Shown: one piece after another, positions 2,406 through 63,812 of the stretch
How the letters are laid out: the number at the start of each line of letters is the position of its first letter
Numbering within the stretch: position 1 is the stretch's first letter
DNA from: an uncultured Planctomycetia bacterium
GTDB taxonomy: Bacteria; Omnitrophota; Gorgyraeia; 2-02-FULL-51-18
DNA: 64,000 nt
Direction: 5' to 3'
NCBI GenBank assembly: GCA_964606485.1
Contig: CAZSGP010000002.1
Span: forward strand, 319,620-383,619
Notes under the pieces: model-generated
Database searches by the model: none
What the model was told of the DNA's origin: nothing
Seen by the model: only the letters and a program-made list of their open reading frames with translations
Position numbers and translations under genes: made by a program

Positions 2406-3437
2406 TTAACCTTCTTTTTTATCTAGCATTCCCTTAAAAACTCCGTTTAAATCCATCAGCGTGGTGTTGTTAGCGCCGGTGGGAATTCCCCAGATTTGCA
2501 ATTTATCCGGGATATTCTTGGCAAACTCCAAAGCCACCACGTTGTGTCCACCTCCAAGTGCTTCAGCGGATAATTTTTTGCCTTCAGCTTCCGCTTTATA
2601 AATCGCAAGCTTTCCCGACGCTTCCTGCTCAAGCTTGTACCGTTCACCGTCGGCTTCAATTTTAGCAGACTCCGCGCGGCCTTGCGCATCTTGAATAGCT
2701 TTTAGCTTCATACCTTTGGCTTCCGCCTCTTGGCGCTTGGCTTCTTCTTCCTGGGCGAGCGCACGGTTTTTATTAATCTCAACTTGTTGAGCCGCTAACT
2801 TCTTCGACTCGATTGCATTTTCAAATTGAGGGCTAAATTGAAAATGGCGGATTAGGGCATCCTGAATCTGAATCGCTGGATATTTGCTTAAAACAGCTAC
2901 GAGCTTCTCTTTGATTTGGAGCTGGATTTGATCACGGACTTTCCCCTGATAAATTTCTTCCGCAGAGTATCCGCCGATGGCAATTCTTGCTTCAGACCGC
3001 ACCTGAGGAAGCAGGATTTGGTCTTCATAATTGGAGCCTATGGATTGGTGCAGTGAAGGAACGCTTTTAGCCTCAAGCGCGTAGATAATCGTCATGTCCA
3101 CACTCACATTTTGCCCGTCGTTTGTTTTGAGCTCCATGTTGTATTCCTTTTCATTCTCGGAAGCCATGGATTGGGACGGAAAAGAGCGGGCGGAAACTTT
3201 ATAAACCACCATGTCGGTGGACCATTTGTTAAAAAAGTGGTATCCCACTCCCAGAGGGTCCTTGCGAACTTCCCCTTTAAATTTATTCACCTGAACGGCG
3301 ACTTCGGTGGGCTTCACATTAATCCATCCAAAGGACAACGCCACGACAACGATCACTGCTGCGACGAGCATAGAGCCGAATGCAGAACCAAAATGCCGTG
3401 TAAATCCTTCCGGAAACGGGCTATTGCCTTGGGCCAT
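2406..3437 (-). CDS. SPFH/band-7 (prohibitin/HflC-like) membrane protein
   Basis: 343 aa. N-terminal TM anchor, SPFH core, and a C-terminal coiled Ala/Glu-rich region (LAAQQVEINKNRALAQEEEAKRQEAEAKG). Confidence 0.8.
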   Translation of the reverse strand: MAQGNSPFPEGFTRHFGSAFGSMLVAAVIVVVALSFGWINVKPTEVAVQVNKFKGEVRKDPLGVGYHFFNKWSTDMVVYKVSARSFPSQSMASENEKEYNMELKTNDGQNVSVDMTIIYALEAKSVPSLHQSIGSNYEDQILLPQVRSEARIAIGGYSAEEIYQGKVRDQIQLQIKEKLVAVLSKYPAIQIQDALIRHFQFSPQFENAIESKKLAAQQVEINKNRALAQEEEAKRQEAEAKGMKLKAIQDAQGRAESAKIEADGERYKLEQEASGKLAIYKAEAEGKKLSAEALGGGHNVVALEFAKNIPDKLQIWGIPTGANNTTLMDLNGVFKGMLDKKEG

Positions 3438-54000: not shown

Positions 54001-57000
54001 CCCCTCTCTAAAAATTCCTTTTTCAGCCCAATCTTGAAGCGCTTTGCTTACAAGCTCGGTGTCTTTAGTAGGATCTTTAAGGAGACTGAGATAGATTTTG
54101 TCTGATCCGAGTTGGATATACGGGCCCTTTAATGAGTCTTCGCCTTTGGTGATTAAATTAGCATTTTGAGTGGGCGTGCCGGAAAGGCGCGCGCCGGAAT
54201 TGAGCGCCGACAAATCCACATTCACCATGCGGTTTATAGCCGCTCCGACCGGGCGCAGTTTGGCTTCGATGACCACGGGCCTTGGGTAATCTTCGGAGCC
54301 GCTCGCTGGAAGCCACATGAGATCAATTTGGCCATCTAATTCAAATCCGTCCGGGACACCGATTGCTTTAAGCCTTTGGGACAAATAACGAACCTCGGCC
54401 TTAACCTGTTCATCCATCTGCTTGGAAAAACCGTCTTTTTTGCCTTCCGAAATCCCTGCCGCTTCATAAAGCGGCGCGTAAATAGTGGGCCAATAATCTT
54501 TCTGGGTCTGAGCTTCTCCGGTAATAAATGTAAAATACGACGAGCTCCCGACACGCGAATGCCAACCGCTCAAATTTTTATCCCCGTCCCTTTCTTTGAG
54601 CAGCACCACGTCGCCGCCGACCGTAAATTGATAGCGCGTCCTTAGCTCCAGCGCTTTACCGTGATAACGCAAAACGGGTGACAATGTCTCAGCCACTCCG
54701 TAATTCTCTCCTATAAACAATTCCCAAAATTCCCGCAATCGGCTAGCCGCATCTTCTCTACTAGCGTCAATAACCAATTGCGTGATTTCTTCAGACGGCT
54801 TGTCTAGGACTGGCACCTTACGGAAAGAAAAATGAGCCTTTACGCGCTGCAATTGATCATCAGACGCGATCGAGCGGTAATCGGCAAACGTGATCACAAA
54901 CGCTCCTTCCTGATTTTTTTCAATCATAAATATGCCATTTCCCATGCTCATCGAATTCGCTTTAACCACGATTGGCAGAGCGCGCGCGCCGCTCATAATT
55001 TCATCGAGCAGTTGGCGCGGTGTTCTGCTTCCTCCAGACGGAATCAGCTCAAGAACAGGCTGTTCCTCAAGAAGGCGGATGTGAAAGGGCTCCGGACCCT
55101 GCCATGATCCATTTACAAAGCGCTTTCCAAAAACCACGTATTCCGGTTGAATCATCGGACCCCCATCCAACAGGCGACGCATTTCGTATTTTCTCGAAAA
55201 CGTCTGAATTAGATTGTCGAATGGCACTTCACTAGCCGACAAGCGGGCACCCGATGATAATGCATCGGTCGGCCTCTGAACTAAAATCTGTCCCGGCTCG
55301 GTTAACCAATGCGTACTAGAGGACTTATTGGAGTCGGTGAAATAAGGCAACGCTAGACTCATATTCTTCGAAATAATCCCAGCGAGTGTTTTCACCTCTG
55401 AGACACTGTTTAGCAATACCTCTTTTTTAAATGTTCTATGAGAAAGAAGATGGGAAATTTTACCGATGCGAGGCTGATTGACGCCGGCCAACCATATTTT
55501 TAATTTTTGGTCCGGCTCTACCAGTATGGTGTAATAACTATCCCTGTAATTAGACTGGACGTAAATTAAGGTCCCTGGTATTTCATCGAATAAATTTAGA
55601 AATTCAACCTCATCCGGCTTCCGGGACGTGTCAAACTTAGGCGCCGCCTCGCTCGAAGAACCTGGAGCCCATGGTCCCGCAGACATCTCGGGATTATGAA
55701 ATTCATAAAACACTTGCCTTAGATATAACTGGCTCATAGCGACAAGCGGTACAGCAGCCGCCAGAACATCAATCCCTACGATGATAGCCGCAAACAATGG
55801 CATACCAAAATAAATCAATCCCAATGAGGTTATTCCGCCAAAAATAATACCCGCACCCCAATAGGCCAAGCGATTTTCATCTATTGAAATACCCAGAAGA
55901 ACATGGGTGGGTATTTCAGCCATCCTCGCCCCGTCCGGCAGGCGGTCTTTAGGAATCTCGTTACGATTTAGAAGATTTAGCTCTCTCTGGACTGCCTGAA
56001 CCGCTTCTTCCAAAAATTTTTTAAATTGATCTCCTGAATAATCTTTCTGTATTGCCTCTACCATTTTCTTCGACTCTTGGGCTAACGCTTTGGCCTTAGC
56101 CCAGTCCTTTGCTTCTTTCCTCACTGCATTGCGGTCCCCTTGAATTTTTTCATAAGCTCGATCCAACTTGGATGAAAAACGGCTATCCTCAATCAGCTCG
56201 GCTTCGGCGATATCTCCCTTAATCGCCGCAAATATTTGAAGCGCCATCCACATTTTTAAAACGACGCGGCCCCGAATGAATTGCCCCGGCCTCCAGGAAA
56301 CTAGGTATGCGTCCGCCATTTTTTCGGCTGTGACCAAGTCCATGGCTTCGATCCCGCGCTTGTTCAGCGCTCTGTACAAATTCAGAAAAACAATCTTGTG
56401 TTTCAAATCCGGTATGGATTCGACACTTTCAACAAGTTCCTTCGACGTTTTTTCATCCATCTCGGTCTTTATGGACTTTAGATTTTCGATCAACGATTCT
56501 AATTTCAAGACGTTCTCTTGGCTTAATTCATCAAAAAGCACCTGTTTTAATTTTGGGTTGGCGCTACTCCACTTTAAAACCGTTTTCATGGTCTCGGGTT
56601 CAACGTTTTCAAGCAGCGCCGCCGGCCCCCCACGCTGGCGCACCGTTTTCAAATCACCCGATTCATTGTAGGCAATCGCGGTGACAAAATTGGGGACGGT
56701 TTTTGAATCAAATAGACCTTTAAAATAGCGGTAGTACACCACCTCGTTCTCTTCCAAAACTTTTTGGTAGTTCTGAGCGACCGGACTCGTCAAGACAGTC
56801 TTTAAGGGGCTTGGCTCGGCGGGCGCCATCGCCTGGGAAGCCTCGGGCGACTGAGAAGACTCGACGGATTCTTGGTAATGGATGGAGGCTTGGGTCAATA
56901 AATGCGAGGTAGAAATTGGTAAAAGCGCTAAAAATAAACCGATCGTGAAAGGAAGCATTCGTCTAAGCAATTGATTCTGAGAGTTTGCCGCAATGATAAT

Positions 57001-60000
57001 TCCCAAATAAACGAGCGCTGTGCAAAGCACTCCGGGAATTCCTAAAGCCGTGTACGCTGAAAGCGCTCCGACAAGCATGCTCGCGGAGGCAGCGCTAAAG
57101 TTTGCCGGGCTAAGAGATGCGAATCGTGCACCGGCGGCCTTCAGAAAATTTATTCTTTTAGCCATTTCTGCCGACCGGCCAAAATCTGCCGCCAATCGCG
57201 GCGCAGTCACTGAGAGCTCCGGATCGTTTTTAAAATATTCTGAAATGTATGAATAAATATCGGCAATAGCATTTCTAATTTTTTGCTGTACTTGCTCTGG
57301 GGTGGCTTCGGCTGCATCCCGGCTCCACAGCTGCGCGACGGCACGAAGGCTTTTCTCATCAACAAGGTCCGTTTGTCCGCTTGCAACTTTCAGCGCCCCC
57401 CTAAACTTCAGCAGAAGGGCGTATTCCTCAATAACCTTCTGGCTTTTTGGAAGTCTTTCCAAAACCTCAAAAGAGCTCGAAAAAGAACGCAACTCAGGAT
57501 GCCGGCTTTTTTCATGCCAAACCAGAAAATGAATGGCGCGGATCACGGCCAATTTTATATTCAATTCTTTTGCGCCCGAAATGACCGGGGTTTGAACACT
57601 GTCTAATTCCTCCAAAAGTGCCTTCTGATGATCACTTCGAGAACTTCCATAGAGATTGTTAGCAACAATCCGTTGAATCAGCACCTGGTCATACTGGTCC
57701 CTGCTACCCGCCACAAAATAAATATCCCGAAACGTAGTCGGCGTGTTGCTGGGAACCTCTATATCGGCATCAATGGCTGGTTCGTATCTTTTTTCAAAAG
57801 GCGCCCATATTTCTTTTGCGCCACCCAGCTCTTCCAGAGATAGAAAATATTTATCCCCCAAACTCTCTTTCATTCCTTCATCCACATCCAGATCCGGCAG
57901 CTTGTATTCATCCACCCACTGCTCAAGCTGAATTTTAATCGCTTCGTGTATTTTTTTTGCATTTTCTTTATTTGCGGCGCTGACCGGAATAACCTTAAAA
58001 TCGATGTCCGAAAAATAAACCAACTCGTCTTTCCGGGCCAAGCTTCCGTAGCTAGCCACCACAAAATCATTCAAATCGACGCCGATCTTTTGCGACACGG
58101 CCTCCGCAGCTAAACGAACGGTTTGATTGAGCCAGCTCGTCATTGAAGTCGAAGCTTTTATCTGCCGCTCCCTATTTATTTCAGGAGCACTCGCTTCAAT
58201 CTCCACATCCCGTTTTAAATCTTTGTAAACTTGAACATGTTGCGCCATTGGATCTTCCGCCAACCGCGCCCCGCTCACGGGCATAAACTTCTCCAAAGCA
58301 GACTTATAAACAAACTCCGGCATCTCACCATCAATCTTGAGCAGTACGATTTCACCACTGGCCACCGCCGCCTTAAAATCGGTTTCATTTGAAATTTTCC
58401 ACCCCATGTTTTGCTCGATGCCAGGGATGAGAACATTTTTTGCTACGTGCCTTCCTTTTCCGGGAGGAATTTTAGAAAGCGCCTCTTTTGTGGGGAAAAT
58501 TCTAAAATGATATTTTTTTCCAAATCTAGCCAGCACATCAAATTCCATCAAGTCTGAATCTGTCTCCACCGTCGCCAGTGTAATTACAGCGCCCTGATCA
58601 AAGCTTTGGCCCTGATGCAATGCGCCGTTCACACCGCTAATCTTAATTTTCCATTGTCCTTCTTCAAAAAAAATCTCCGCATGCTTTCTGGAGATTGTTG
58701 AGCCTGGTATTGATATCTCATTCTCCGGATTCCGCCCAACGAAGTATCTTTTTTCAGGTGTAAGCGTTATAGGCGATCCGCTTGTCGTTGTGACTACTAA
58801 ATTTTTTCCGTCCAAGTGATAACCAAACTTGCCGTCCCCCAAAAACATCTCTTGGGTGGTAGGCTCGGTGGAAGTAGCGGCGGGCGCGCCAAATCGTTTC
58901 CGAAACTCCGCAATCACCGGTATCCTGTTGAGATATTTTTCAGAAACATCGACGTAATTAGTATTGGAGGGGTGCGATTGGCCTGCGTATTCTCTCGCTT
59001 GTTTTCGATACTCATATGCGGGAGTCGTAAAGGACCCACCCTTGACCCATTTTGCCCTTAAACCTAAAACTCCAATTTTACCGGTGGTTTCAATGCTACC
59101 AATCCACGATCTTCCATCTTTATCCGTCATAAAAATAAAACGTAGATTTTTATTGAGCGATCTAAAAACACGCGCGGTGACCATTCCATAAAGATTTGTT
59201 TGCATCGTAGTCTGATCTTTTTTGGGATCGAAACCCTCAAAATTAGGAGCATCCCCCGGGTCCGTAAACCGAACATCTTCGGGCCTCGGTTTTTTCGTAG
59301 AGTCCACCATCCCGAAACGGTCCATCACCAAAGAACCTTCCTTTAACCGCTGCGCGTTCCTGTCGATGGCCATTTTATAAGTCCCCTGTAAATCATAATT
59401 ATTCTGATAATCCCGTGTCGTTCCCGCAAAAATCAACTCTTGAACACGCTTATCTCTTATCTCAACAATTTTCTTTTGCTCGGAAATTTTGTTGAGCGCT
59501 ACTTGAATTTCAAAAGGAAGTGTAATGCTGTCTTCTCCAAAACCTTTGTCATACCAATCAATCTCTCCAAGCCCATCCAAGTAAACACTAGGCAAGTATC
59601 TCCACAATGCTTGGGAATTGCTCAAATAATAAGTTCTCGCCACGTATCTGTTTCCCGCTTTTACATAGGCAATCGCAGCCAGTCGTTTATCTTTCATTTC
59701 AAATAAATTCGATGCAAACAAAAGCACCTGCCCGTCCACATTAACCCGATGCTTGGGAATCATCCCTTCGCGTCTTAGCAAGTCCGTGGTCAAAAATTCA
59801 CCCTTAAAGGACCGTCCGTGAATATCCGTTTTAGCTAAAATCGCAAGCCCTTCTTCAGCGCCAATTTCGACAGGAGCATCGGCCTGGAGCGAAATTTCCT
59901 CATTAACCCCTGCCGGAGAAGCCAAAGAAACGTTAAACCTATCGATCATTTTTTCAACGATATTTTTGATGGCTTCCTTGGCTTGCGCAGGAATGGAGTT

Positions 60001-63000
60001 ATCGAGTGCATAGCTAAAAGCACCATCACCGCTTTCCGCGGAAAGATTACGAATGAGGTGAAGCCGATACTGACCCGGTTTTAGTGCGCTCGCTTTGCCA
60101 ATCGATAAAATATTTCCGTCAATCCCAATAATGACCTCTACGATAATTTTTTTGTACGTATTGCTCGACACAAGAGCGCTTTCGAAATCGTCGGATTTTA
60201 GTTTTTTGACGTTCGTCTGAAGAATGAGCTCGTCATCGTCCTTTAGATTGGCTCTCAGGATCGAAAGCACTTTTGTTTCTCCGGAGTCCATGTCTTCATT
60301 GTCTTGCGTGCGGCGTGAAGCGGCGGCTATTTCGATGAGCGGCAAGTACAAATCTCGAGGCATCCGGTAGGAGGCCACTAATTCATAAAACTCGCCGAGT
60401 TTTCCCGCCTTTGAAGCGTCCTTTAAATCGTCGGATTGTCTCAAGAAAAATTCGATTTCGGACATTTCGGTTAAATTCATTTTTCCGCTAAGATCTTCGA
60501 CTGCTTTTTTAAACAAAGATTGGTCGGCCAGCCATCCCATATCCACAAACTGAAGCGGCGGCACTTTCGTGCCGTTGGTTGATTCCAAATCTTGCACAAC
60601 TACCATCGGCAACCCTTGAGAGGCGTCCAAATGAATTTCAAAATGACGCGTTGAAATTCCAGGATCAGAGAGCTCGCTCGCATCCCGTCCTGCAATAAAT
60701 GGTTTGCCCGTCATAAGTTTCTGGAATGAGGGATCCAGTTCACGCGAATCACCGACTTGCGCATATTTTCTTAAAATAAATTCATCCCCTCTTTTTTCTA
60801 TCGCAAAATCCGTATTGCCTGCCCGCAGCAATGGCCTCGCTCCATCTTCGGTCATTGTCATAAAATAGGGTACGTTCGCGGTGAGGGGGGTTGTGAATAA
60901 ATCACTTGGCGCAAGGGAGGCTAAACGCGAACCGCTTGGAGGAGCGACCTCATCCATTCTCTGCAAAACCAGCTTAATCTGACTCTTTATGCTTTCGGGA
61001 TAACGCCTAAATGAGGGGCTTGTTACAACCGCCTGAACAGATTGCTTGAGCTTTGAAAGATCTTCCTTGGAAAGATTTCTTTCCTCTAGAAATTTATCAA
61101 AAGCTACTGAGATTCCGTTAAAATTTTTAGCTTCTTCCGCCCCAAATCCTGGAAACATCTTTCGCATATCCAGATTTATTTTTGAAATCAAGCTGTTAAA
61201 ATCAAGATATTGCGGCAATCCTAAGTCGAGATACTGAACCTTTGAGACTTCATTCTTTGACTTCACAACAAAATTATCGGGCTTCAAGTCGCCGATCGTG
61301 ATTCCCGTATCTGCATATCTATTGGCTTGGCTTATTAAAAGCCAGGCTCTCACAATAGTTTCGACCACGCTGGCGTATTTATCCCGCGTTATCCCGGTAA
61401 CTGCGCCGATCTCCACGCCGTTTTTCAAATCAACATACTCCCCAACCGTGAACCCCGTATATTTAACGGGCTTCTCGCCGATACCCATCACCAAGGGAAT
61501 GTAGCCATACACCTCGATGGCCACACCGTTTAACTCATTGTATTTCCTGAAAAGCTGCACTTCCTTTTTTGCAGTATCCTCACCGCCATTTTTTATAAAT
61601 CGGATTCCAATAACATGCGATTCGAGCACTCCATCTTTGTTTGAGGCTTCAATTTCCATTCTTAGAACGTATTTATAATTTCCCTCGCCCCCATAGCTAA
61701 TTTTTTTAATTTTTACTTCTTTTAAATTCTGAAGATTCGCCATTTCCAAAATTTTGTCCATATTTGAATAAATGTAGGGGACTGTCGCTTCATAATCCTG
61801 CGGATCAATCCCTTCCAAAATAGAGACCGCCATCCTCGCCCCCGCCGCCTTAAAATCATCCACCACGGCACTCACCTCTTGCGGCGTTGCCCCCGCTTCA
61901 CTTAAAAGCTCCGTAAGCGTACTAGGTCTATTTTCCGCAGCTGCGAGTCGTGCACCGGGGGCCGTCAACACAGGCCGAAGGTCATTATTTTTCTGCCTAC
62001 TTTTAAGCAAATCCTTCTCCAAAGCACTTAAAGGTTTATCCGCATGAGACTCGCCCTGCACCATCTCCACCTTTTTAATTTCTGCGTGCATGGGTTCAAG
62101 CAGCAGCTTTTCATATTTCTTTTGATTCGTTTCTGCCGTCACCACCGGCGTCAGCACCGCGATCGAATACCCCTTTTCGGAAAGGAGTTTCTTTAAATGC
62201 GGCGTGTGATAACCACCCGCGATCATAAACGCGGCATTCGCATTATTTTCAGCGAGCGCTTTTTCGGCATTTTGGAGAAACACGAAATCTCTCTTCGACA
62301 CCGTGTCATAAAAAGCCTCGAGCGACTTACGGCCTTCATCCAAAACCGGTTCAAGCACCAAAAGATCTTCGAAATATCCAAGCTCCGCGAGTTTTCGATT
62401 GATAAATGCTAAATAAGATAATGTTGAGAAATCGGGCTCATTGGCTTTAAACGTTTCAAAATCTTTCGTCGTCATTTGAATTTGGTAGGCTGTTTTGAGG
62501 AGTTTCAGGTAACGGTCGATGGAGCGAATAAGCCTAGTATCACTGGATTGCTTCGCTTCGCTCGCAATGACAGATAAGTAAACTTCGTCTTCGATGGCTT
62601 CCATTTCGCCTAGCAGAACATCCAGATCAATCGCAGAAAAAAACTGCAAGTATTCCGCGTATTTTTCAAGATGCGGAAACTTTTCAAGATTCACTCCCTT
62701 TACCTTTGCCATATTCAATGTGTTTAAAATTGGGCCAAGCCGCGAAAGCTTGTTGTCATTCCCGCGCAAGCGGGAATCAAGTTGATCCCCGCTTAAAGAT
62801 TGCGGGGATGACCGAAGCTCTTCCAACAATGCGGCCAGCTCGAGATTGGAGAGATTGAAATCGATTAATTTTTCCTGAAGCGAAAGCTCAACAAGTTTTT
62901 CAGCATTTGGGTACTTTTCGAGTTCTATTTTATTCTGAGAAGCCATCTCGAGCAGCGCTTTGAATTTTTTCTCAAACGAACTCTCCGCCCCATAAAGCTT

Positions 63001-63630
63001 CTCAAATTGGAGCAGTTCTTTGGGGTAGAGCTTCGACTTGATCTGATCTTCCGCACGCTGAATAGCGTGGAGATAATCGAGTATCTTTTCCCGGCGAGTG
63101 GCCAAATCGCCGTAACTTTGAACACTTTTTAAATAGAGCTCCTGATCCTCAAGTCCCATAATTTTCATTGGATGCTCGCTTGTTAAATTTAAATATTCCT
63201 CCCCCGAAATTTTTCCAAGCAGTAAATATTTTTTAGCAATCCGTTTCCAAACAGCGGGTGTCGCGATTTTTTTGAGTGCTGTCAGCGAGCAGTCATCGAT
63301 ACCACCCTCCGACAACACTAGCTTGATTCCATACTTTGACATCAGAAAATCAAGTGCGCCCGAGAGATTCTGTTGTCCCGAAAAATTGGCATGCGCGTCT
63401 TCGATTTGGATAATCAACTTTCCCCCGGACGCTTTAGAAACCTCTTTGAGCGAACAAAATTCGGTGGGTACGTCTAGCTGCTGTGGCTCCGCTAAAAGCG
63501 AGGTAAGTAGCGGCGGTGAAACAGGCGTCGCCCCAATTTCAGTCCCGGCAAAACCAAGCTCTTGCAAAAAGAAAGCGAAAGCTAAAACTAAGCTGACAAG
63601 GCGAACCGTTAGGCACTGTCTGTTTTTCAT
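48070..63630 (-). CDS. Giant multidomain protein (5186 aa): signal peptide, Tiki/TraB-like domain, kinase-like domain, two FHA domains, Pol-beta nucleotidyltransferase, ATP-grasp-like segment, three TM blocks, HEAT-repeat array, SAM-MTase-like segment
   Basis: A single uninterrupted 15.56-kb ORF in a roughly 50% GC genome. Several independent domain signatures were recognised by eye (detailed in the sub-features). Confidence 0.75.
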   Translation of the reverse strand: MKNRQCLTVRLVSLVLAFAFFLQELGFAGTEIGATPVSPPLLTSLLAEPQQLDVPTEFCSLKEVSKASGGKLIIQIEDAHANFSGQQNLSGALDFLMSKYGIKLVLSEGGIDDCSLTALKKIATPAVWKRIAKKYLLLGKISGEEYLNLTSEHPMKIMGLEDQELYLKSVQSYGDLATRREKILDYLHAIQRAEDQIKSKLYPKELLQFEKLYGAESSFEKKFKALLEMASQNKIELEKYPNAEKLVELSLQEKLIDFNLSNLELAALLEELRSSPQSLSGDQLDSRLRGNDNKLSRLGPILNTLNMAKVKGVNLEKFPHLEKYAEYLQFFSAIDLDVLLGEMEAIEDEVYLSVIASEAKQSSDTRLIRSIDRYLKLLKTAYQIQMTTKDFETFKANEPDFSTLSYLAFINRKLAELGYFEDLLVLEPVLDEGRKSLEAFYDTVSKRDFVFLQNAEKALAENNANAAFMIAGGYHTPHLKKLLSEKGYSIAVLTPVVTAETNQKKYEKLLLEPMHAEIKKVEMVQGESHADKPLSALEKDLLKSRQKNNDLRPVLTAPGARLAAAENRPSTLTELLSEAGATPQEVSAVVDDFKAAGARMAVSILEGIDPQDYEATVPYIYSNMDKILEMANLQNLKEVKIKKISYGGEGNYKYVLRMEIEASNKDGVLESHVIGIRFIKNGGEDTAKKEVQLFRKYNELNGVAIEVYGYIPLVMGIGEKPVKYTGFTVGEYVDLKNGVEIGAVTGITRDKYASVVETIVRAWLLISQANRYADTGITIGDLKPDNFVVKSKNEVSKVQYLDLGLPQYLDFNSLISKINLDMRKMFPGFGAEEAKNFNGISVAFDKFLEERNLSKEDLSKLKQSVQAVVTSPSFRRYPESIKSQIKLVLQRMDEVAPPSGSRLASLAPSDLFTTPLTANVPYFMTMTEDGARPLLRAGNTDFAIEKRGDEFILRKYAQVGDSRELDPSFQKLMTGKPFIAGRDASELSDPGISTRHFEIHLDASQGLPMVVVQDLESTNGTKVPPLQFVDMGWLADQSLFKKAVEDLSGKMNLTEMSEIEFFLRQSDDLKDASKAGKLGEFYELVASYRMPRDLYLPLIEIAAASRRTQDNEDMDSGETKVLSILRANLKDDDELILQTNVKKLKSDDFESALVSSNTYKKIIVEVIIGIDGNILSIGKASALKPGQYRLHLIRNLSAESGDGAFSYALDNSIPAQAKEAIKNIVEKMIDRFNVSLASPAGVNEEISLQADAPVEIGAEEGLAILAKTDIHGRSFKGEFLTTDLLRREGMIPKHRVNVDGQVLLFASNLFEMKDKRLAAIAYVKAGNRYVARTYYLSNSQALWRYLPSVYLDGLGEIDWYDKGFGEDSITLPFEIQVALNKISEQKKIVEIRDKRVQELIFAGTTRDYQNNYDLQGTYKMAIDRNAQRLKEGSLVMDRFGMVDSTKKPRPEDVRFTDPGDAPNFEGFDPKKDQTTMQTNLYGMVTARVFRSLNKNLRFIFMTDKDGRSWIGSIETTGKIGVLGLRAKWVKGGSFTTPAYEYRKQAREYAGQSHPSNTNYVDVSEKYLNRIPVIAEFRKRFGAPAATSTEPTTQEMFLGDGKFGYHLDGKNLVVTTTSGSPITLTPEKRYFVGRNPENEISIPGSTISRKHAEIFFEEGQWKIKISGVNGALHQGQSFDQGAVITLATVETDSDLMEFDVLARFGKKYHFRIFPTKEALSKIPPGKGRHVAKNVLIPGIEQNMGWKISNETDFKAAVASGEIVLLKIDGEMPEFVYKSALEKFMPVSGARLAEDPMAQHVQVYKDLKRDVEIEASAPEINRERQIKASTSMTSWLNQTVRLAAEAVSQKIGVDLNDFVVASYGSLARKDELVYFSDIDFKVIPVSAANKENAKKIHEAIKIQLEQWVDEYKLPDLDVDEGMKESLGDKYFLSLEELGGAKEIWAPFEKRYEPAIDADIEVPSNTPTTFRDIYFVAGSRDQYDQVLIQRIVANNLYGSSRSDHQKALLEELDSVQTPVISGAKELNIKLAVIRAIHFLVWHEKSRHPELRSFSSSFEVLERLPKSQKVIEEYALLLKFRGALKVASGQTDLVDEKSLRAVAQLWSRDAAEATPEQVQQKIRNAIADIYSYISEYFKNDPELSVTAPRLAADFGRSAEMAKRINFLKAAGARFASLSPANFSAASASMLVGALSAYTALGIPGVLCTALVYLGIIIAANSQNQLLRRMLPFTIGLFLALLPISTSHLLTQASIHYQESVESSQSPEASQAMAPAEPSPLKTVLTSPVAQNYQKVLEENEVVYYRYFKGLFDSKTVPNFVTAIAYNESGDLKTVRQRGGPAALLENVEPETMKTVLKWSSANPKLKQVLFDELSQENVLKLESLIENLKSIKTEMDEKTSKELVESVESIPDLKHKIVFLNLYRALNKRGIEAMDLVTAEKMADAYLVSWRPGQFIRGRVVLKMWMALQIFAAIKGDIAEAELIEDSRFSSKLDRAYEKIQGDRNAVRKEAKDWAKAKALAQESKKMVEAIQKDYSGDQFKKFLEEAVQAVQRELNLLNRNEIPKDRLPDGARMAEIPTHVLLGISIDENRLAYWGAGIIFGGITSLGLIYFGMPLFAAIIVGIDVLAAAVPLVAMSQLYLRQVFYEFHNPEMSAGPWAPGSSSEAAPKFDTSRKPDEVEFLNLFDEIPGTLIYVQSNYRDSYYTILVEPDQKLKIWLAGVNQPRIGKISHLLSHRTFKKEVLLNSVSEVKTLAGIISKNMSLALPYFTDSNKSSSTHWLTEPGQILVQRPTDALSSGARLSASEVPFDNLIQTFSRKYEMRRLLDGGPMIQPEYVVFGKRFVNGSWQGPEPFHIRLLEEQPVLELIPSGGSRTPRQLLDEIMSGARALPIVVKANSMSMGNGIFMIEKNQEGAFVITFADYRSIASDDQLQRVKAHFSFRKVPVLDKPSEEITQLVIDASREDAASRLREFWELFIGENYGVAETLSPVLRYHGKALELRTRYQFTVGGDVVLLKERDGDKNLSGWHSRVGSSSYFTFITGEAQTQKDYWPTIYAPLYEAAGISEGKKDGFSKQMDEQVKAEVRYLSQRLKAIGVPDGFELDGQIDLMWLPASGSEDYPRPVVIEAKLRPVGAAINRMVNVDLSALNSGARLSGTPTQNANLITKGEDSLKGPYIQLGSDKIYLSLLKDPTKDTELVSKALQDWAEKGIFREGVKFSVIAPNTIHIEPTNETVHLHAPIQFPHELNRVLAGARLSAGQAGMATSKETRLEDIAFTLFLRTTLLFTGLYALTAVKVFILMGPVPLLAAQIYFWLSDSSKPAVGEPVTTALQESVARVVNPLDSTCIETYFNLASTDKERIVARQAIDEYFQLSRDKKAAYRILARIQSERKAPANLSYLEKEILSDLLPALSIASPDIFDEKDMEYAHLLIKFPAKNTSTNYQMNNYIFLNNIARTSLSDVSKKARSVISQLKNDPEIGEIFRASMDWVDQSEGFGARMADVSIDKAREKHMKSIMTHGILSRRAIMEKRPDTIFAFSRDLDYPDAGGDLIYDDRVYGVAMPASKDVDQNLDRALGDRSPFSMLPVVVENDSTDEDVRERLNHTIIVMQIFKDAKLPYVRLGKTEVEREGSVSASAIDVFFVPETMLDMASRVMGNDFKKVIVVKKQKEITVDSKKETHRVIAPSFKEALAEYIAARPSGDSSYWMHAVRFPIQSDLEKISANQVGARMAGSDEIKKLIEDLKNEDGNIRVRSARTLAEMGPSAQEAIPALIEALKDKNLHLRRSAAIALGEIGPATKEVIPALIEALKDEEGYAYIALGKIGPAAKEAIPTLLERLKDESGVMRHGDVLTLGRIGAATKEVIPALIEASKDKDPTVRRNAATALGQIGPAAREVVPALIEALKDKDWLVRHYAAESLGKIGPAAQEAIPALVEASKDEDLGNSQAIVALGKIDPTAEEPIPALIEALKDKDRVVRRNAAITLGQIGPAAKEVIPALIEALKDEDPSVRLEAAFALGRIGPVAPNIALALIELLNDKYKIVSESAIQALGRMNNSSTRLISFLEAAYPYGKKYSLSGFEILRLADFLAEKDNEPVHWASDKEIYDLAVDAVAQNNEVALLPLAEIKDSWVGRITGSERTKKAKAAYDLAKKYVDSITPEDVYRKYFPEDLKEEFVPVVDRQLKNSVSQKFDAVASLADDAAKKHFNSLTSELDPIATLASEATEQVNKGSVANTLDNLNTLGRIAADSSAVKEVSEKDIEKITTEILKEHDYIEPREAFRLKRLVAKNLNAPIPQDLTLEGDEKLKGTMTGEVFETMTQELAEQWNGAETQVNRDGDLEILQDAFALTNTEKEKIKQKANEIAELKIKKTRSDAILKQIDAQVGQLTPREVDRSLKEGISAEAILSEKKPTTVVDEKVTEEPAKERRVEMEGARLSDLRSFYQLNKAALGAKKYRLYWIPLAGQASVWANFREVVRDLRLGILAVDEKSGALSLAVENFNLNQYLTDRRSRQVNDFLRDHPKDAKAEILVPIHTFNNNKNRTSFGTVQLKALPKDQVEFSIKKGWLSYVPFEAKGERLILTGAAPEQLMQELLAPRPMFAATAPLKEIAPDLAPNQQLVGVGARLALGKQGRMARLQELQKFYETQGDAFKDAEGAVADTSFYKPTDLKSIFEVFEKLLKEKGSLEGKQFFEMGSGDFRVSAVAAYLYGMKITAVEKDADISRAARDVLIQSKFWQLVPRDNFTFLGNTDALAVSWSQVDVFYFYYTQPSGLGVGKRESFQSALREKLGRELKPGAFAVMGQWGNHVGPYYPKAWGDPQQSELFTLKFKNKGALNGETAFKVYQVPDIEELVPTFKEIYGARLPSNEIKSMPSAFEASDTLLLARLADKVGAQFSKDELSRPFSFLTGITLVKFVDAGLAVELYRRGDVGEEARVFIGKLTFDEATREKAHKLNSESVAVLPRVVGQQIQMASPEVLELNSENERVTRLITRLYQKSGISNDRTVVLRIVTEKELSVEELSLYASKIKSVRAVAGSNVLLQFGTLAGERFLEYGASDALQGLARDQYEMVYFSKLSDAALKLAQADGAGAVVFENFGDGKSAIPFAASATFAVAAARLPSVTDTLKQMWNNLRSDSFSELLPAAFQAIKKVTTIDTQFYKKLSLKVLAVLDWAKFVEFAKTSLASIGASA
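49230..49593 (-). other. SAM-dependent methyltransferase-like segment (motif I)
   Basis: FFEMGSGDFRVSAVAAYLYGMKITAVEKD resembles MTase motif I (E/D-x-G-x-G) with an acidic residue at the end of beta2. Tentative. Confidence 0.3.
51486..52467 (-). repeat. About ten tandem HEAT (PBS-lyase-type) repeats, with a 93-bp periodic near-identical DNA repeat
   Basis: The 31-aa unit AIPALIEALKDKD..VRR.AA.ALG.IGPAAKE is repeated about 10 times. At DNA level, blocks such as GTCTTTTAA(C/T)GCTTCAATCAG.GCAGGGATG recur with a 93-bp period. Confidence 0.85.
53694..53823 (-). other. Internal hydrophobic (TM) block 3
   Basis: IAFTLFLRTTLLFTGLYALTAVKVFILMGPVPLLAAQIYFWL. Confidence 0.55.
54210..55023 (-). other. 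ATP-grasp-like segment of the giant protein
   Basis: ALPIVVKANSMSMGNGIFMIE (compare vvKP..gs.G.Gv) and later PVVIEAKLRP (compare viEvN..P). Tentative. Confidence 0.3.
55725..55869 (-). other. Internal hydrophobic (TM) block 2
   Basis: LAYWGAGIIFGGITSLGLIYFGMPLFAAIIVGIDVLAAAVPLVAM. Confidence 0.55.
56910..57078 (-). other. Internal hydrophobic (TM) block 1 of the giant protein
   Basis: MLVGALSAYTALGIPGVLCTALVYLGIIIAA...MLPFTIGLFLALLPI, two predicted helices. Confidence 0.55.
57180..58143 (-). other. Pol-beta superfamily nucleotidyltransferase domain (GlnE/GlnD/DUF294-like) plus helical region
   Basis: ASYGSLARKDELVYFSDIDFKV carries the GS...D.D NTase signature. Confidence 0.6.
58560..58779 (-). 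other. FHA domain 2 of the giant protein
   Basis: YFVGRNPENEISIPGSTISRKHAEIFFEEGQWKIKISGVNGALHQG. Confidence 0.55.
60540..60738 (-). other. FHA domain 1 of the giant protein
   Basis: FIAGRDASELSDPGISTRHFEIHLD...VVVQDLESTNGTKV matches the FHA consensus (GR..D..l.d..vSR.Ha.i...........DlgStNGT.vN). Confidence 0.7.
61140..61713 (-). other. Protein-kinase-like domain (non-RD; catalytic D/K/N retained) in the giant protein
   Basis: Gly-rich loop ISYGGEGNYKYVL, catalytic-loop-like IGDLKPDNFVV (compare HRDLKPEN), and DLG in place of DFG (YLDLGLP). Confidence 0.5.
62546..62574. repeat. Single arm of the family-2 REP-like element (GTCATTGCGAGCGAAGCGAAGCAATCC), in-frame in the giant gene
   Basis: It matches the arm of the 13788..13862 palindrome and encodes VIASEAKQS within the giant protein. 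Confidence 0.6.
62749..62808. repeat. Family-1 double-hairpin REP-like element inserted in-frame inside the giant gene (copy 3)
   Basis: GTCATTCCCGCGCAAGCGGGAATCAAGTTGATCCCCGCTTAAAGATTGCGGGGATGAC. In the gene frame it encodes SSPQSLSGDQLDSRLRGND; the opposite strand gives SFPRKRESS. Confidence 0.8.
63544..63630 (-). other. Predicted N-terminal signal peptide of the giant protein
   Basis: MKNRQCLTVRLVSLVLAFAFFLQELGFAG: basic n-region, hydrophobic core and an A-x-A-like end. Confidence 0.6.
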
Positions 63631-63812
63631 AATTTTTTTATCATTATTAACTATTAATTAACTTCCTTATTATAAATTTTACATGAGATTTTAGCCATTT
63701 CAAGGCCTGGAGCCACTTTTTTAAGGTCTATAACCAATTGAAAACAAAGGGGTTATTGTGCTAGAATGCCATTCATAGCAACTTGTGACTTGAGCAAAGG
63801 AAAAAACAAGCA
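63631..63812. promoter_or_regulatory. AT-rich divergent promoter region between the giant gene and the hldD-like gene
   Basis: 182 bp at over 70% AT. Contains the palindrome TTAACTATTAATTAA and several TATAAT-like hexamers. Confidence 0.4.

What the first reader, a model, noticed from the sequence alone, without database searches (positions are those of the whole stretch)
58560..61713. Eukaryote-like phospho-signalling trio (kinase-like domain + two FHA domains) embedded in the giant protein
The catalytic-loop-like IGDLKPDN retains the Asp/Lys/Asn of HRDLKPEN but lacks His-Arg. DLG replaces DFG, and a Gly-rich loop is present. Together these suggest a possibly active non-RD kinase.

Two FHA (phospho-Thr-binding) domains follow at aa 965-1030 and 1618-1690. 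Kinase plus FHA pairs are classic bacterial STPK signalling partners. Finding them fused into a 5000-aa membrane protein is unusual.
Basis: partly seen in the sequence, partly recalled or inferred. Interest (0 to 1): 0.6.

Follow-up and report, generated by a model that had tools for sequence, protein, structure and literature searches.

The report
Kinase-like and FHA modules, Omnitrophota giant protein
A 5,186-residue Omnitrophota protein really carries two phosphothreonine-binding FHA domains and a very divergent kinase-like domain, but they are two of about 15 unrelated cargo modules, each preceded by the same five-residue motif (G-A-R-L/M-A/S), which may mark where such giant proteins are cut.

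Summary

- **FHA domains:** both pass Pfam's threshold (28.7 and 37.7 bits against a cut-off of 20.7). Both keep the Arg, Ser-x-x-His and Asn-Gly residues that bind phosphothreonine.
- **Kinase-like domain (aa 602-899):** no Pfam model detects it. Even so, an AlphaFold model (pLDDT 82) matches only protein kinases in the PDB. A profile comparison (95.9%, E 5e-9) aligns it from the Gly-rich loop to the DFG motif. The alphaC Glu, the catalytic Asp/Lys/Asn and the DLG Asp are conserved. The beta3 Lys is Arg, and an invariant Lys sits in the Gly-rich loop, as in WNK kinases. The substrate-binding half of a Hanks kinase is missing.
- **Host protein:** it belongs to an Omnitrophota family with four parts. 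These are a conserved Sec-type signal peptide, a roughly 500-aa N-domain, variable cargo modules each preceded by GAR[LM][AS], and a conserved C-terminal tail. The motif occurs 11 times here against 0.03 expected.
- **Topology:** sequence rules place the kinase-like and FHA modules outside the cytoplasm. This argues against classic cytoplasmic signalling.
- **Recurrence:** FHA cargo appears in other family members without a visible kinase-like partner.

Enzyme activity, cleavage at the motif and true location are all untested.

The parts
48070..63630 (-). Giant ORF, 5,186 aa, including the stop codon. It is a member of an Omnitrophota family of modular proteins that combine a signal peptide with transmembrane segments.
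   Evidence: The identical protein is on an NCBI contig of 401 kb. Relatives of its N-domain are found only in records that are, or resemble, Omnitrophota MAGs.
63676..63703 (-). Sigma-70-like promoter match (TTGAAA-16-TAAAAT, 10 of 12 positions), 46 nt upstream of the ATG.
   Evidence: This is a consensus match only.
63544..63630 (-). Predicted Sec-type signal peptide, aa 1-29: MKNRQCLTVRLVSLVLAFAFFLQELGFAG, with the likely cut before TE.
   Evidence: Hydropathy scan. The same layout is seen in 71 of 71 family N-termini: a positively charged start, a 12-aa hydrophobic core, then '..A|AP'. No SignalP was run.
61957..63543 (-). Conserved N-domain, aa 30-558. Invariant residues include D78, H80, E108, E145, E161, D162, R180, H475 and H478. 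Function unknown.
   Evidence: 25 homologues at E down to 1.7e-145. 132 relatives in GTDB genomes. AF2 pLDDT 84. No significant fold or sequence match in the PDB.
61843..61956 (-). Module 2: a short 38-aa segment lying between the first two junction motifs (GARLA at aa 559, GARMA at aa 597).
   Evidence: Relatives also have closely spaced motifs just after the N-domain.
60934..61842 (-). Module 3: GARMA motif plus a divergent protein-kinase-like domain (aa 597-899).
61666..61695 (-). Gly-rich loop YGGEGNYKYV (aa 646-655), containing the invariant Lys653 at the position of the third glycine.
   Evidence: G650 and K653 are invariant in 13 of 13 sequences. The loop aligns to CDK2 G11-E-G13-T-Y-G16. 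It lies at the beta1-beta2 turn in the model.
61591..61614 (-). Beta3 strand VIGIRFIK (aa 673-680). Arg677 stands in place of the catalytic Lys.
   Evidence: R677 aligns to CDK2 K33. The column is Arg in 11, Lys in 1 and Asn in 1 of 13 sequences.
61540..61572 (-). AlphaC helix AKKEVQLFRKY (aa 687-697), with the invariant Glu690.
   Evidence: E690 aligns to CDK2 E51.
61273..61296 (-). Catalytic loop IGDLKPDN (aa 779-786): Asp781, Lys783, Asn786.
   Evidence: D781 is invariant; K783 and N786 are conserved in at least 90% of sequences. They align to CDK2 D127, K129 and N132.
61213..61233 (-). YLDLGLP (aa 800-806): the equivalent of the DFG motif, with the invariant Asp802.
   Evidence: D802 aligns to CDK2 D145.
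60919..60933 (-). Junction motif GSRLA (aa 900-904), between the kinase-like module and the FHA module.
60541..60738 (-). FHA domain 1 (aa ~965-1030).
   Evidence: Pfam PF00498, 28.7 bits, E 1.9e-6. PDB best hit is Rv0020c FHA, E 0.002.
58831..60510 (-). A 560-aa region between the FHA domains (aa 1041-1600). No family assignment.
   Evidence: No Pfam hit at E<=10. No homologue in 74 family ORFs.
58561..58779 (-). FHA domain 2 (aa ~1618-1690).
   Evidence: Pfam PF00498, 37.7 bits, E 2.7e-9. PDB hits are GarA/OdhI, E 4e-4.
58258..58272 (-). Junction motif GARLA (aa 1787-1791), closing the FHA module.
49051..57132 (-). Ten further junction motifs at aa 2167 (GARFA), 2567 (GARMA), 2794, 3146 and 3248 (GARLS), 3492 and 3722 (GARMA), 4428 (GARLS), 4618 (GARLA) and 4856 (GARLP). 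They bound modules 6-15.
   Evidence: There are 11 strict copies against 0.03 expected. Codons differ between copies, so selection acts on the peptide, not the DNA.
56896..57078 (-). Transmembrane hairpin 1 (aa ~2185-2245). It starts 18 aa after the GARFA motif.
   Evidence: Hydropathy scan. The Arg-Arg in the connecting loop was read from the sequence.
55720..55863 (-). Transmembrane hairpin 2 (aa ~2590-2637). It starts about 20 aa after a GARMA motif.
53701..53829 (-). Transmembrane hairpin 3 (aa ~3268-3310). It starts about 20 aa after a GARLS motif.
50350..52467 (-). Module 12 (aa 3722-4427). Its HEAT-repeat array begins a few residues after the GARMA motif.
   Evidence: Pfam HEAT_2, E 1.5e-53. 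The NCBIfam and PADLOC hits are HEAT repeats only.
48073..49065 (-). Module 15 (aa 4856-5186): conserved C-terminal region ending ...SLASIGASA.
   Evidence: phmmer hits to the C-termini of L026 and L012. In an alignment of complete family ORFs, 13 of 18 end in -AA.

Best explanation
The finding covers two adjacent cargo modules of an Omnitrophota-specific modular giant protein. The family plan has four parts:
- a Sec-type signal peptide;
- a conserved N-domain of about 500 aa;
- a string of mutually unrelated modules, each preceded by the pentapeptide G-A-R-[L/M]-[A/S];
- a conserved C-terminal tail.

Module 3 (aa 597-899) is a member of a small, undescribed protein-kinase-like family. It keeps everything needed to bind ATP-Mg and transfer phosphate: the Gly-rich loop, the alphaC Glu, the D-L-K-x-x-N catalytic loop and the DLG Asp. 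Its phosphate-binding Lys has moved into the Gly-rich loop, as in WNK kinases. It lacks the activation segment and substrate-binding lobe of Hanks kinases.

Module 4 (aa 900-1786) holds two canonical FHA domains around a 560-aa unknown region.

The most likely working model is that module 3 is an active Ser/Thr-type phosphotransferase, as the D-L-K-x-x-N loop suggests. It would place phosphothreonine marks on itself, on sister modules or on an external target. The FHA domains of module 4 would dock on those marks and hold or regulate the assembly.

Shown here: the domain identities, the conserved residues, the motif-delimited modular layout, and membership of the family. Inferred: catalytic activity, that the FHA domains read this kinase's marks, where the modules sit, and whether the motifs are cut.
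For: - **FHA domains.** Both score above Pfam's cut-off and keep the phosphothreonine-binding residues.
- **Kinase fold.** The AF2 model has pLDDT 82. Foldseek finds 637 PDB hits at E<=1e-3, and the top 50 are all protein kinases, including PknB, PknG and WNK1. hhalign gives 95.9%, E 5e-9, with residue-by-residue mapping of K653, R677, E690, D781, K783, N786 and D802.
- **Purifying selection on the catalytic set.** G650, K653, E690, D781 and D802 are invariant, and K783 and N786 nearly so, across 13 sequences that are only 22-30% identical.
- **Signalling role of the family.** Nine of ten homologues tested carry a Pfam cNMP-binding domain directly upstream. That is the PKA/PKG layout.
- **Modular layout.** There are 14 motifs in this protein, 11 of them strict copies against 0.03 expected, and at most 2 in 2,000 shuffles. 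The other 15.4 kaa of ORFs in the window hold none. Synonymous codons differ between copies.
- **The motif across the family.** Family ORFs hold 181 motifs in 139.5 kaa against 1.26 expected.
- **The motif sits in linkers.** Residues just before it have low pLDDT in both models.
- **Domains start just after the motif.** This holds for the HEAT array here, for DnaJ and HTH_3 in relatives, and in L051 a J-domain N-terminus begins 2-3 residues after GARLAS.
- **Family membership.**
Against: - No Pfam or NCBIfam kinase model detects module 3.
- TM-scores to real kinases are only 0.28-0.42.
- The canonical beta3 Lys is Arg. I had no model coordinates, so I could not check that K653 points into the nucleotide pocket.
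- Without an activation segment or P+1 loop, the substrate could be a small molecule or lipid rather than a protein.
- The signal peptide plus paired transmembrane hairpins predict an extracytoplasmic location, where ATP is normally absent.
- FHA cargo occurs in L074, L016 and L076 with no kinase-like module in the readable part. The kinase-like profile hits none of the 74 family ORFs. The kinase-FHA adjacency may therefore be accidental.
- No phosphatase or second kinase lies nearby.
Confidence: 0.55

Rival explanations
1. Classic cytoplasmic signalling in cis. The giant protein stays in one piece and is anchored in the inner membrane with its bulk in the cytoplasm. The kinase-like domain autophosphorylates Thr residues of the same chain, and the two FHA domains bind them to switch the neighbouring enzyme modules. 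The GAR[LM][AS] motifs would be only flexible linkers.
For: - The cargo is of cytoplasmic type. Here it includes an ATP-dependent kinase fold. In relatives it includes DnaJ and HTH_3 domains, which need Hsp70 and DNA.
- The 2026 preprint reads nearly half of the long Omnitrophota proteins as membrane-anchored with cytoplasmic domains.
- Kinase plus FHA pairs are the standard bacterial arrangement (established knowledge: PknB with FhaA/GarA).
Against: - A textbook Sec signal peptide with an A|AP-type site is conserved in 71 of 71 family N-termini.
- Transmembrane segments occur only as hairpins, so they do not change sides.
- A five-residue motif kept at 14 sites, with free synonymous codon change and no flanking conservation, is more than a passive linker needs.
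- The domain is not a Hanks kinase.
- The kinase-FHA pairing is not conserved in the family.
Confidence: 0.2
2. The kinase-like module is not a protein kinase. It is either a small-molecule or lipid kinase, or a catalytically dead scaffold. The FHA domains work independently of it and bind phosphothreonine marks made by other kinases, possibly those of another cell.
For: - Homology ends six residues after DLG. There is no activation segment, APE motif or matching C-lobe, and TM-scores are low. This is the pattern of small-molecule kinases and of Rio/Bud32-type minimal kinases (established knowledge).
- The beta3 Lys is replaced.
- One homologue gives a faint ABC1 atypical-kinase hit, E 0.007.
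- FHA cargo occurs without kinase-like cargo in relatives.
Against: - The full catalytic set is invariant across very divergent sequences, which argues against a dead scaffold.
- The Lys in D-L-K-x-x-N is typical of Ser/Thr protein kinases, not of the APH/choline-kinase type (established knowledge).
- The best fold matches are all protein kinases.
- Fusion to cNMP-binding domains mirrors PKA/PKG.
Confidence: 0.2
3. Chance resemblance. The kinase-like strings are short motifs occurring by accident in a very long protein.
For: Pfam finds no kinase domain. PDB sequence hits are marginal, E 0.016-0.1.
Against: - hhalign E 5e-9 over 146 columns, with all motifs in the canonical order.
- Foldseek probability 1.00 for hundreds of kinases.
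- A homologous family conserves exactly those residues.
Confidence: 0.01

Closest known systems
Hanks-type (eukaryote-like) Ser/Thr kinases with FHA partners, e.g. M. tuberculosis PknB with FhaA (Rv0020c) and GarA
   Same: - Bilobal kinase fold with a Gly-rich loop, alphaC Glu, D-L-K-x-x-N loop and Mg-binding Asp.
- PknB and PknG are among the top fold matches.
- The FHA domains are most similar in sequence to Rv0020c and GarA/OdhI.
   Different: - No Pfam Pkinase hit.
- Ile-Gly in place of His-Arg, and Arg in place of the beta3 Lys.
- No activation segment, APE motif or matching C-lobe.
- Predicted extracytoplasmic location.
- Kinase and FHA are modules of one 5,186-aa ORF, separated by a junction motif.
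WNK ('with no lysine') kinases
   Same: - The Lys sits at the third-glycine position of the Gly-rich loop: GEGNYK here, GRGSFK in WNK1.
- The beta3 Lys is replaced.
- DLG stands in place of DFG.
- WNK1 is among the fold matches.

   Different: - No detectable specific relatedness to WNKs.
- Beta3 holds Arg, not Cys.
- The family lacks the WNK C-lobe.

The resemblance is probably convergent. Whether K653 reaches the nucleotide was not checked in three dimensions.
Omnitrophota giant multi-enzyme proteins ('Archaeovorins', bioRxiv 10.1101/2023.11.21.568195; the signal-peptide-plus-TM class of 10.64898/2026.06.07.730766)
   Same: - Same phylum.
- Signal peptide plus scattered transmembrane helices.
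- HEAT repeats.
- Many unrelated enzyme-like domains in one ORF.
- Cleavage into several products was already suspected for these proteins.
   Different: - Much smaller: 5,186 aa against 30,000-147,000.
- No SecA, C39 or S8 domains found by Pfam.
- Those papers name no cleavage points, no conserved N-domain family and no FHA domains.
[quoted passage not shown]
Multi-effector toxins and surface polyproteins cut at short conserved sites (MARTX toxins; Porphyromonas gingipain polyproteins) - analogy from established knowledge
   Same: - Conserved N- and C-terminal parts flank a variable set of unrelated modules.
- A short recurring site lies in the linkers.
- MARTX modules are released by cuts after Leu. 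Gingipain polyproteins are cut after Arg or Lys and carry an N-terminal signal peptide plus a conserved C-terminal sorting domain.
   Different: - No protease domain has been identified here.
- No RTX repeats, and no T1SS or T9SS genes nearby.
- Transmembrane hairpins lie inside some modules.
- Cleavage is not shown.
cAMP/cGMP-dependent protein kinases (PKA/PKG layout)
   Same: Nine of ten homologues of the kinase-like domain tested have a cNMP-binding domain directly upstream.
   Different: The copy in this window has no cNMP-binding domain; a junction motif precedes it. The catalytic domain is far from AGC kinases.

Membership tests
Hanks-type Ser/Thr protein kinase (Pfam PF00069) | Scores above the Pfam Pkinase gathering threshold | tested here: not met
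   No kinase family appears at E<=10 for aa 602-899, or at E<=1 for the whole protein.
Hanks-type Ser/Thr protein kinase (Pfam PF00069) | Gly-rich loop GxGxxG at the beta1-beta2 turn | tested here: met
   G-E-G-N-Y-K aligns to CDK2 G-E-G-T-Y-G. It lies at the beta1-beta2 turn of the model. The third Gly is replaced by the invariant Lys653.
Hanks-type Ser/Thr protein kinase (Pfam PF00069) | Beta3 Lys (VAIK) paired with the alphaC Glu | tested here: not met
   The beta3 position is Arg677 (Arg 11, Lys 1, Asn 1 of 13 sequences). The alphaC Glu690 is present and invariant.
Hanks-type Ser/Thr protein kinase (Pfam PF00069) | Catalytic loop HRDLKxxN | tested here: inconclusive
   D781, K783 and N786 are present and conserved. 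His-Arg is replaced by Ile-Gly.
Hanks-type Ser/Thr protein kinase (Pfam PF00069) | DFG Mg-binding Asp | tested here: met
   D802 of DLG is invariant and aligns to CDK2 D145.
Hanks-type Ser/Thr protein kinase (Pfam PF00069) | Activation segment, APE motif and subdomains IX-XI | tested here: not met
   The hhalign alignment ends six residues after DLG. Foldseek TM-scores are 0.28-0.42.
Hanks-type Ser/Thr protein kinase (Pfam PF00069) | Phosphotransfer to Ser/Thr of proteins | not testable with these tools
   Needs an in vitro assay.
Protein-kinase-like (PKL) fold superfamily | Bilobal kinase fold recognised by structure comparison | tested here: met
   AF2 pLDDT 82. Foldseek finds 637 PDB hits at E<=1e-3; the top 50 are all protein kinases with probability 1.00. 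hhalign 95.9%.
WNK-type kinases | Catalytic Lys in beta2 (GxGxxK) instead of beta3 | tested here: inconclusive
   The sequence position matches and the Lys is invariant. Its side-chain geometry could not be inspected. There is no specific sequence relatedness to WNKs.
FHA domain (Pfam PF00498) | Scores above the gathering threshold | tested here: met
   28.7 and 37.7 bits against 20.7. Two stretches are found in the full protein.
FHA domain (Pfam PF00498) | Phosphothreonine-contact residues (Arg of G-R, Ser and His of S-x-x-H, Asn of N-G) | tested here: met
   AGRD...STRH...TNGT in FHA1, and VGRN...SRKH...VNGA in FHA2.
FHA domain (Pfam PF00498) | Binds phosphothreonine peptides | not testable with these tools
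   Needs binding assays.
Omnitrophota giant multi-domain proteins (Archaeovorin type) | Encoded by Omnitrophota | tested here: met
   Homologues of the N-domain are named Candidatus Omnitrophota or Omnitrophica. The 80 loci come from Omnitrophota MAGs or from MAGs with other labels that carry the same family. The window's own genome was not in the GTDB set.
Omnitrophota giant multi-domain proteins (Archaeovorin type) | HEAT repeats, many transmembrane helices, many unrelated domains | tested here: met
   HEAT_2 E 1.5e-53. One N-terminal and three paired transmembrane segments. About 15 modules.
Omnitrophota giant multi-domain proteins (Archaeovorin type) | Length of at least 30,000 aa; SecA-related and C39/S8 peptidase domains | tested here: not met
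   The protein is 5,186 aa. Pfam finds no SecA or peptidase domain.
Processed polyprotein (MARTX or gingipain type) | Recurrent short site in the linkers between unrelated modules | tested here: met
Processed polyprotein (MARTX or gingipain type) | A protease that recognises the site | tested here: inconclusive
   No protease domain by Pfam. The N-domain has a His/Asp/Glu-rich invariant set but no significant fold match: best E 0.1, with erythromycin-esterase-family entries at ranks 5 and 9. There is no PDB sequence match either.
Processed polyprotein (MARTX or gingipain type) | Cleavage products observed | not testable with these tools
   Needs proteomics.

The most novel reading that the evidence does not exclude
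The G-A-R-[L/M]-[A/S] motifs are processing sites. On this reading the giant ORF is a secreted bacterial polyprotein that is cut into about 15 separate proteins. Among them would be a stand-alone atypical kinase of about 33 kDa and a double-FHA protein of about 98 kDa. These would act outside the producer's cytoplasm, in the periplasm, at the cell surface or inside a prey or host cell. The conserved N-domain, which also exists as a stand-alone secreted protein, would be the processing enzyme or export chaperone. Sub-lineages with other N-domain types use other junction peptides (AARLA, ARFTE, TDASGAAP). This would supply the cleavage points that earlier work on Omnitrophota giant genes said were missing.
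Probability: 0.3. Interest if true: 0.85.

Novelty: new variant of a known kind. Interest (0 to 1): 0.6.

Why it matters
1. **A new kinase-like family.** It has a WNK-like lysine shift and no Pfam model. Outside Omnitrophota it is usually fused to a cyclic-nucleotide-binding domain. It is a candidate new class of cNMP-regulated bacterial kinases.

2. **A testable route into an open question.** Omnitrophota giant genes are among the longest known, and whether their products are cut is unresolved. Earlier work states that no cleavage points are known. The motif-delimited layout found here gives exact, testable cut-site predictions. It also gives a rational way to split such proteins for structure prediction.

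3. **A location puzzle.** If the modules really lie outside the cytoplasm, a kinase, FHA domains and (in relatives) DnaJ and HTH domains would be working where their usual partners are absent. That would point to action inside another cell.

Tried and rejected
**Searches that gave nothing or little**
- Pfam, NCBIfam and PADLOC on the whole protein and on each module. Only FHA and HEAT are detected. The PADLOC hit is just HEAT repeats.
- Word-index homologue search with the kinase-like domain alone and with its family alignment: no hits.
- Looking up contigs that encode the exact protein: none on record.
- GTDB genome scan with the kinase+FHA region: no relatives, so the window's own genome is not in that set.
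- Literature searches for Omnitrophota with 'polyprotein', and for the motif strings, found nothing relevant.

**Ideas tested and not supported**
- N-domain as a member of the erythromycin-esterase/Tiki/TraB superfamily. The idea came from its H...E...H-type invariant residues. Foldseek gave only weak hits (E 0.3-0.6 for 3b55 and 6xcq) and the PDB profile search gave nothing.
- Module 5 as a nucleotidyltransferase and module 14 as a SAM methyltransferase, both guessed by eye from short motifs. Neither Pfam nor the PDB supports them.
- A conserved partner gene (protease or secretion system) next to family genes. The only recurrent neighbour is the nuo operon beside one paralogue, which is synteny only.
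- The motif as a DNA repeat or recombination site. Rejected because the codons vary synonymously.
- The motif as an internal translation start. Rejected because the fourth codon is often CTC, CTT or TTA.
- Homologues of this protein's cargo modules in 74 related ORFs. None were found; only the N-domain and the C-terminal region are shared.

Full report
**1. What is there**

The finding lies inside one ORF, window 48070..63630 on the minus strand, 5,186 aa. No ORF longer than 131 aa lies on the opposite strand. The identical protein exists in NCBI on a 401-kb contig. The rest of the window is ordinary chromosomal metabolism: the suf operon, NadA, GltB, MetH, ThyX, sulfite reductase and others. 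It holds no kinase, phosphatase, peptidase or secretion genes, and no RNA genes.

**2. FHA domains**

Both are real.
- FHA1 scores 28.7 bits (E 1.9e-6) and FHA2 scores 37.7 bits (E 2.7e-9) against Pfam PF00498, whose cut-off is 20.7 bits.
- The nearest solved structures by sequence are mycobacterial FHA proteins, Rv0020c and GarA/OdhI.
- Both keep the residues that contact phosphothreonine in known FHA domains: G-R, S-x-x-H and N-G.

**3. Kinase-like domain**

Pfam finds no kinase at E<=10. Sequence searches of the PDB give only marginal kinase hits confined to the catalytic-loop/DFG stretch. Deeper methods do support a kinase fold.

- **Homologues.** An exhaustive HMMER scan of 1.84 billion representatives found 14 homologues (E 1e-21 to 8e-5) and one true eukaryotic kinase at E 2.5e-4.
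- **Conservation.** Thirteen aligned sequences are 22-30% identical. G650, K653, E690, D781 and D802 are invariant, and K783 and N786 nearly so.
- **Structure.** The AF2 model has pLDDT 82. Against the PDB it matches 637 chains at E<=1e-3. The top 50 are all protein kinases, including PknB, PknG and WNK1. TM-scores are only 0.28-0.42.

The hhalign alignment maps residues as follows:

| This protein | CDK2 equivalent | Role |
|---|---|---|
| K653 | G16 | third Gly of GxGxxG (the position of the WNK catalytic Lys) |
| R677 | K33 | beta3 Lys |
| E690 | E51 | alphaC Glu |
| D781 / K783 / N786 | D127 / K129 / N132 | catalytic loop |
| D802 | D145 | DFG Asp |

The alignment stops six residues after DLG. 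This is therefore a protein-kinase-like domain with a complete nucleotide and catalytic core. It has a WNK-like lysine position and no Hanks-type substrate-binding half. It is not a member of the Hanks family as Pfam defines it.

Nine of ten homologues tested carry a cNMP-binding domain just upstream. This supports a regulated signalling enzyme. The public names of these homologues mention only that cNMP domain.

**4. The host protein**

Fourteen copies of G-[A/S]-R-[L/M/F]-[A/S/P] cut the protein into about 15 modules.
- Eleven copies fit the strict pattern GAR[LM][AS], against 0.03 expected and at most 2 in 2,000 shuffles.
- The other 15.4 kaa of ORFs in the window have none.
- Codons differ between copies, so the peptide is what selection keeps.
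- The kinase-like domain is module 3 (aa 597-899). FHA1, a 560-aa unknown region and FHA2 together form module 4 (aa 900-1786). GSRLA lies between the two modules.
- Three modules begin with the motif, then about 20 residues, then a transmembrane hairpin. The HEAT array begins a few residues after a motif.
- In both AF2 models the residues next to the motif have low confidence, as expected for linkers.

**5. The family**

- **N-domain.** The first 558 aa define a family. There are 25 homologues at E down to 1.7e-145, and those with names are called Candidatus Omnitrophota. GTDB species genomes hold 132 relatives, often several per genome.
- **Motif density.** In 74 related ORFs (139.5 kaa) the strict motif occurs 181 times against 1.26 expected. 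That is 1.3 per kaa, against 0.11 per kaa in other ORFs of the same loci.
- **Motif specificity.** Of 220 'GAR' tripeptides, 189 are followed by L or M and 180 then by A or S. The median spacing is 285 aa.
- **Other junction peptides.** Branches with more distant N-domains use different recurring peptides: AARLA, ARFTE and TDASGAAP.
- **Signal peptide.** All 71 N-termini examined look like Sec signal peptides with an '..A|AP' site.
- **C-terminus.** Complete members end in a conserved tail, '...A[IV]G[SA]AA'.
- **Variable cargo.** None of modules 2-14 has a homologue in the 74 ORFs.
- **Domains start at the motif.** Where relatives carry recognisable cargo, it starts right after a motif: HTH_3 in L006, DnaJ in L012, and in L051 'GARLAS-PKKDYYEVLGV', which is the N-terminus of a J-domain.
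- **FHA recurrence.** FHA cargo recurs in L074 (two copies), L016 and L076. No kinase-like module is detectable there.

**6. How it most likely works**

Shown here: two FHA domains, one kinase-fold domain with a conserved catalytic set, the motif-delimited layout, and family membership.

Inferred: module 3 transfers phosphate to Thr or Ser, as its D-L-K-x-x-N loop suggests. The FHA domains of module 4 would then bind the resulting phosphothreonines and hold or regulate an assembly of modules or a target. I put this at about 0.55.

Main doubts:
- the missing substrate-binding lobe;
- the unverified geometry of K653;
- the non-conserved kinase-FHA pairing;
- the location.

On location: the signal peptide, together with transmembrane segments that occur only as hairpins, predicts that all soluble modules lie outside the cytoplasmic membrane. 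ATP is not normally available there. The published surveys note the same puzzle for larger relatives.

**7. Comparison with what is known**

Omnitrophota giant genes with HEAT repeats, many transmembrane helices and mixed enzyme content are already described. [quoted passage not shown] A signal-peptide-plus-TM class is also described. Neither paper mentions FHA domains, a conserved N-domain family or a junction motif. Nothing turned up in the literature searches.

The layout resembles multi-effector toxins and surface polyproteins that are cut at short sites, such as MARTX toxins and gingipains. This comparison rests on established knowledge, and no protease was identified here. The position of any cut is open. 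It could fall after G-A (double-glycine type; the G-[A/S] variation fits), after Arg, or after Leu/Met.

**8. Verdict**

The trio is best seen as cargo of a modular Omnitrophota protein, not as a fused classical STPK signalling unit. The novelty lies in the undescribed kinase-like family and, more so, in the junction-motif architecture noticed while working on the finding.

Noticed in passing
window 61942-61956, 61828-61842, 60919-60933, 58258-58272, 57118-57132, 55918-55932, 55237-55251, 54181-54195, 53875-53889, 53143-53157, 52453-52467, 50335-50349, 49765-49779, 49051-49065 (minus strand): Fourteen copies of the pentapeptide G-[A/S]-R-[L/M/F]-[A/S/P] divide the giant protein into about 15 modules. 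Eleven are strict copies against 0.03 expected. Their codons vary, and the motif is equally enriched in related Omnitrophota ORFs (181 against 1.26 expected). They are candidate processing or junction sites.
   Followed up: yes
window 61957-63630 (-); loci L004-L083: The first 558 aa (signal peptide plus N-domain) define an Omnitrophota family. It has 132 relatives in GTDB genomes, with several paralogues per genome. Stand-alone versions of 516-570 aa also exist (L043, L060, L066, L068-L071, L081). Its fold has no significant PDB match.
   Followed up: partly
window 48073-48500 (-); C-termini of L003, L010, L012, L019, L026, L055 and others: Complete family members end in a conserved tail, '...A[IV]G[SA]AA-COOH'. 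Thirteen of 18 end in AA, and this protein ends ...SIGASA. It may be a sorting or recognition signal.
   Followed up: partly
L033, L038, L057 (AARLA); L061 (ARFTE); L065, L080 (TDASGAAP): Branches of the family with more distant N-domains lack GARLA. They carry other recurring short peptides instead. The junction peptide therefore varies with the N-domain type.
   Followed up: partly
L051 6745-11427; L012 aa 2953-3040; L006 aa 3611-3661: In relatives, recognisable cargo begins right after a motif. In L051, 'GARLAS-PKKDYYEVLGV...' is the very N-terminus of a DnaJ J-domain. A DnaJ domain in L012 and an HTH_3 domain in L006 follow a motif by 24 and 12 residues. These are cytoplasm-type domains in proteins that carry a signal peptide.
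   Followed up: partly
L074 (aa 575-630 and 2588-2654), L016 (aa 2703-2763), L076 (aa 1150-1184): FHA domains recur as cargo in other family members, once as a pair. No kinase-like module is detectable in the readable 3.5-3.9 kaa.
   Followed up: partly
proteins P0003-P0014 (homologues of window aa 602-899): Nine of ten homologues of the kinase-like domain tested carry a Pfam cNMP-binding domain immediately upstream. They are annotated, if at all, only as 'cyclic nucleotide-binding domain-containing protein'. The kinase-like half appears to be undescribed.
   Followed up: partly
window 53701-53829, 55720-55863, 56896-57078, 63544-63630 (-): The signal peptide, plus transmembrane segments that occur only as paired hairpins, predicts that every soluble module lies outside the cytoplasmic membrane. 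This includes the kinase-like and HEAT modules. It is at odds with their usual cofactor needs.
   Followed up: partly
L001 236-3945; L002 108-3817: One family gene is split into two overlapping ORFs (618 and 622 aa), 16 nt after... more precisely, just after a GARMA motif. The 618-aa product is identical on six contigs. The second ORF carries another GARM motif and the family C-terminal tail. This may be a frameshift or a genuine split.
   Followed up: no
protein P0007 (3,870 aa) and P0015 (1,470 aa): Two other large proteins carry the same kinase-like domain. P0015 also has the N-domain (27% identity, E 4e-53) but no GARLA motif. P0007 starts with what looks by eye like a SecA-type motor; this was not tested.
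   Followed up: partly
loci L004-L007, L009, L012, L013 and others: Many GTDB records that carry this family are titled 'uncultured Planctomycetia' or 'Candidatus Eisenbacteria'. Their family genes are 45-53% identical to those of named Omnitrophota MAGs. The record titles may be mislabelled.
   Followed up: no
window 57133-58272 and 49066-49779 (-): By eye, module 5 has a nucleotidyltransferase-like string (GSLARKDELVYFSDIDF) and module 14 a SAM-methyltransferase-like string (FFEMGSGDF). Neither Pfam nor PDB sequence searches support either.
   Followed up: yes
upstream flanks of L018, L021, L037, L059 and others: One paralogue of the family sits next to what look by eye like NADH dehydrogenase (nuo) genes in 13-17 loci. 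This is conserved synteny, with no sign of a functional link.
   Followed up: no
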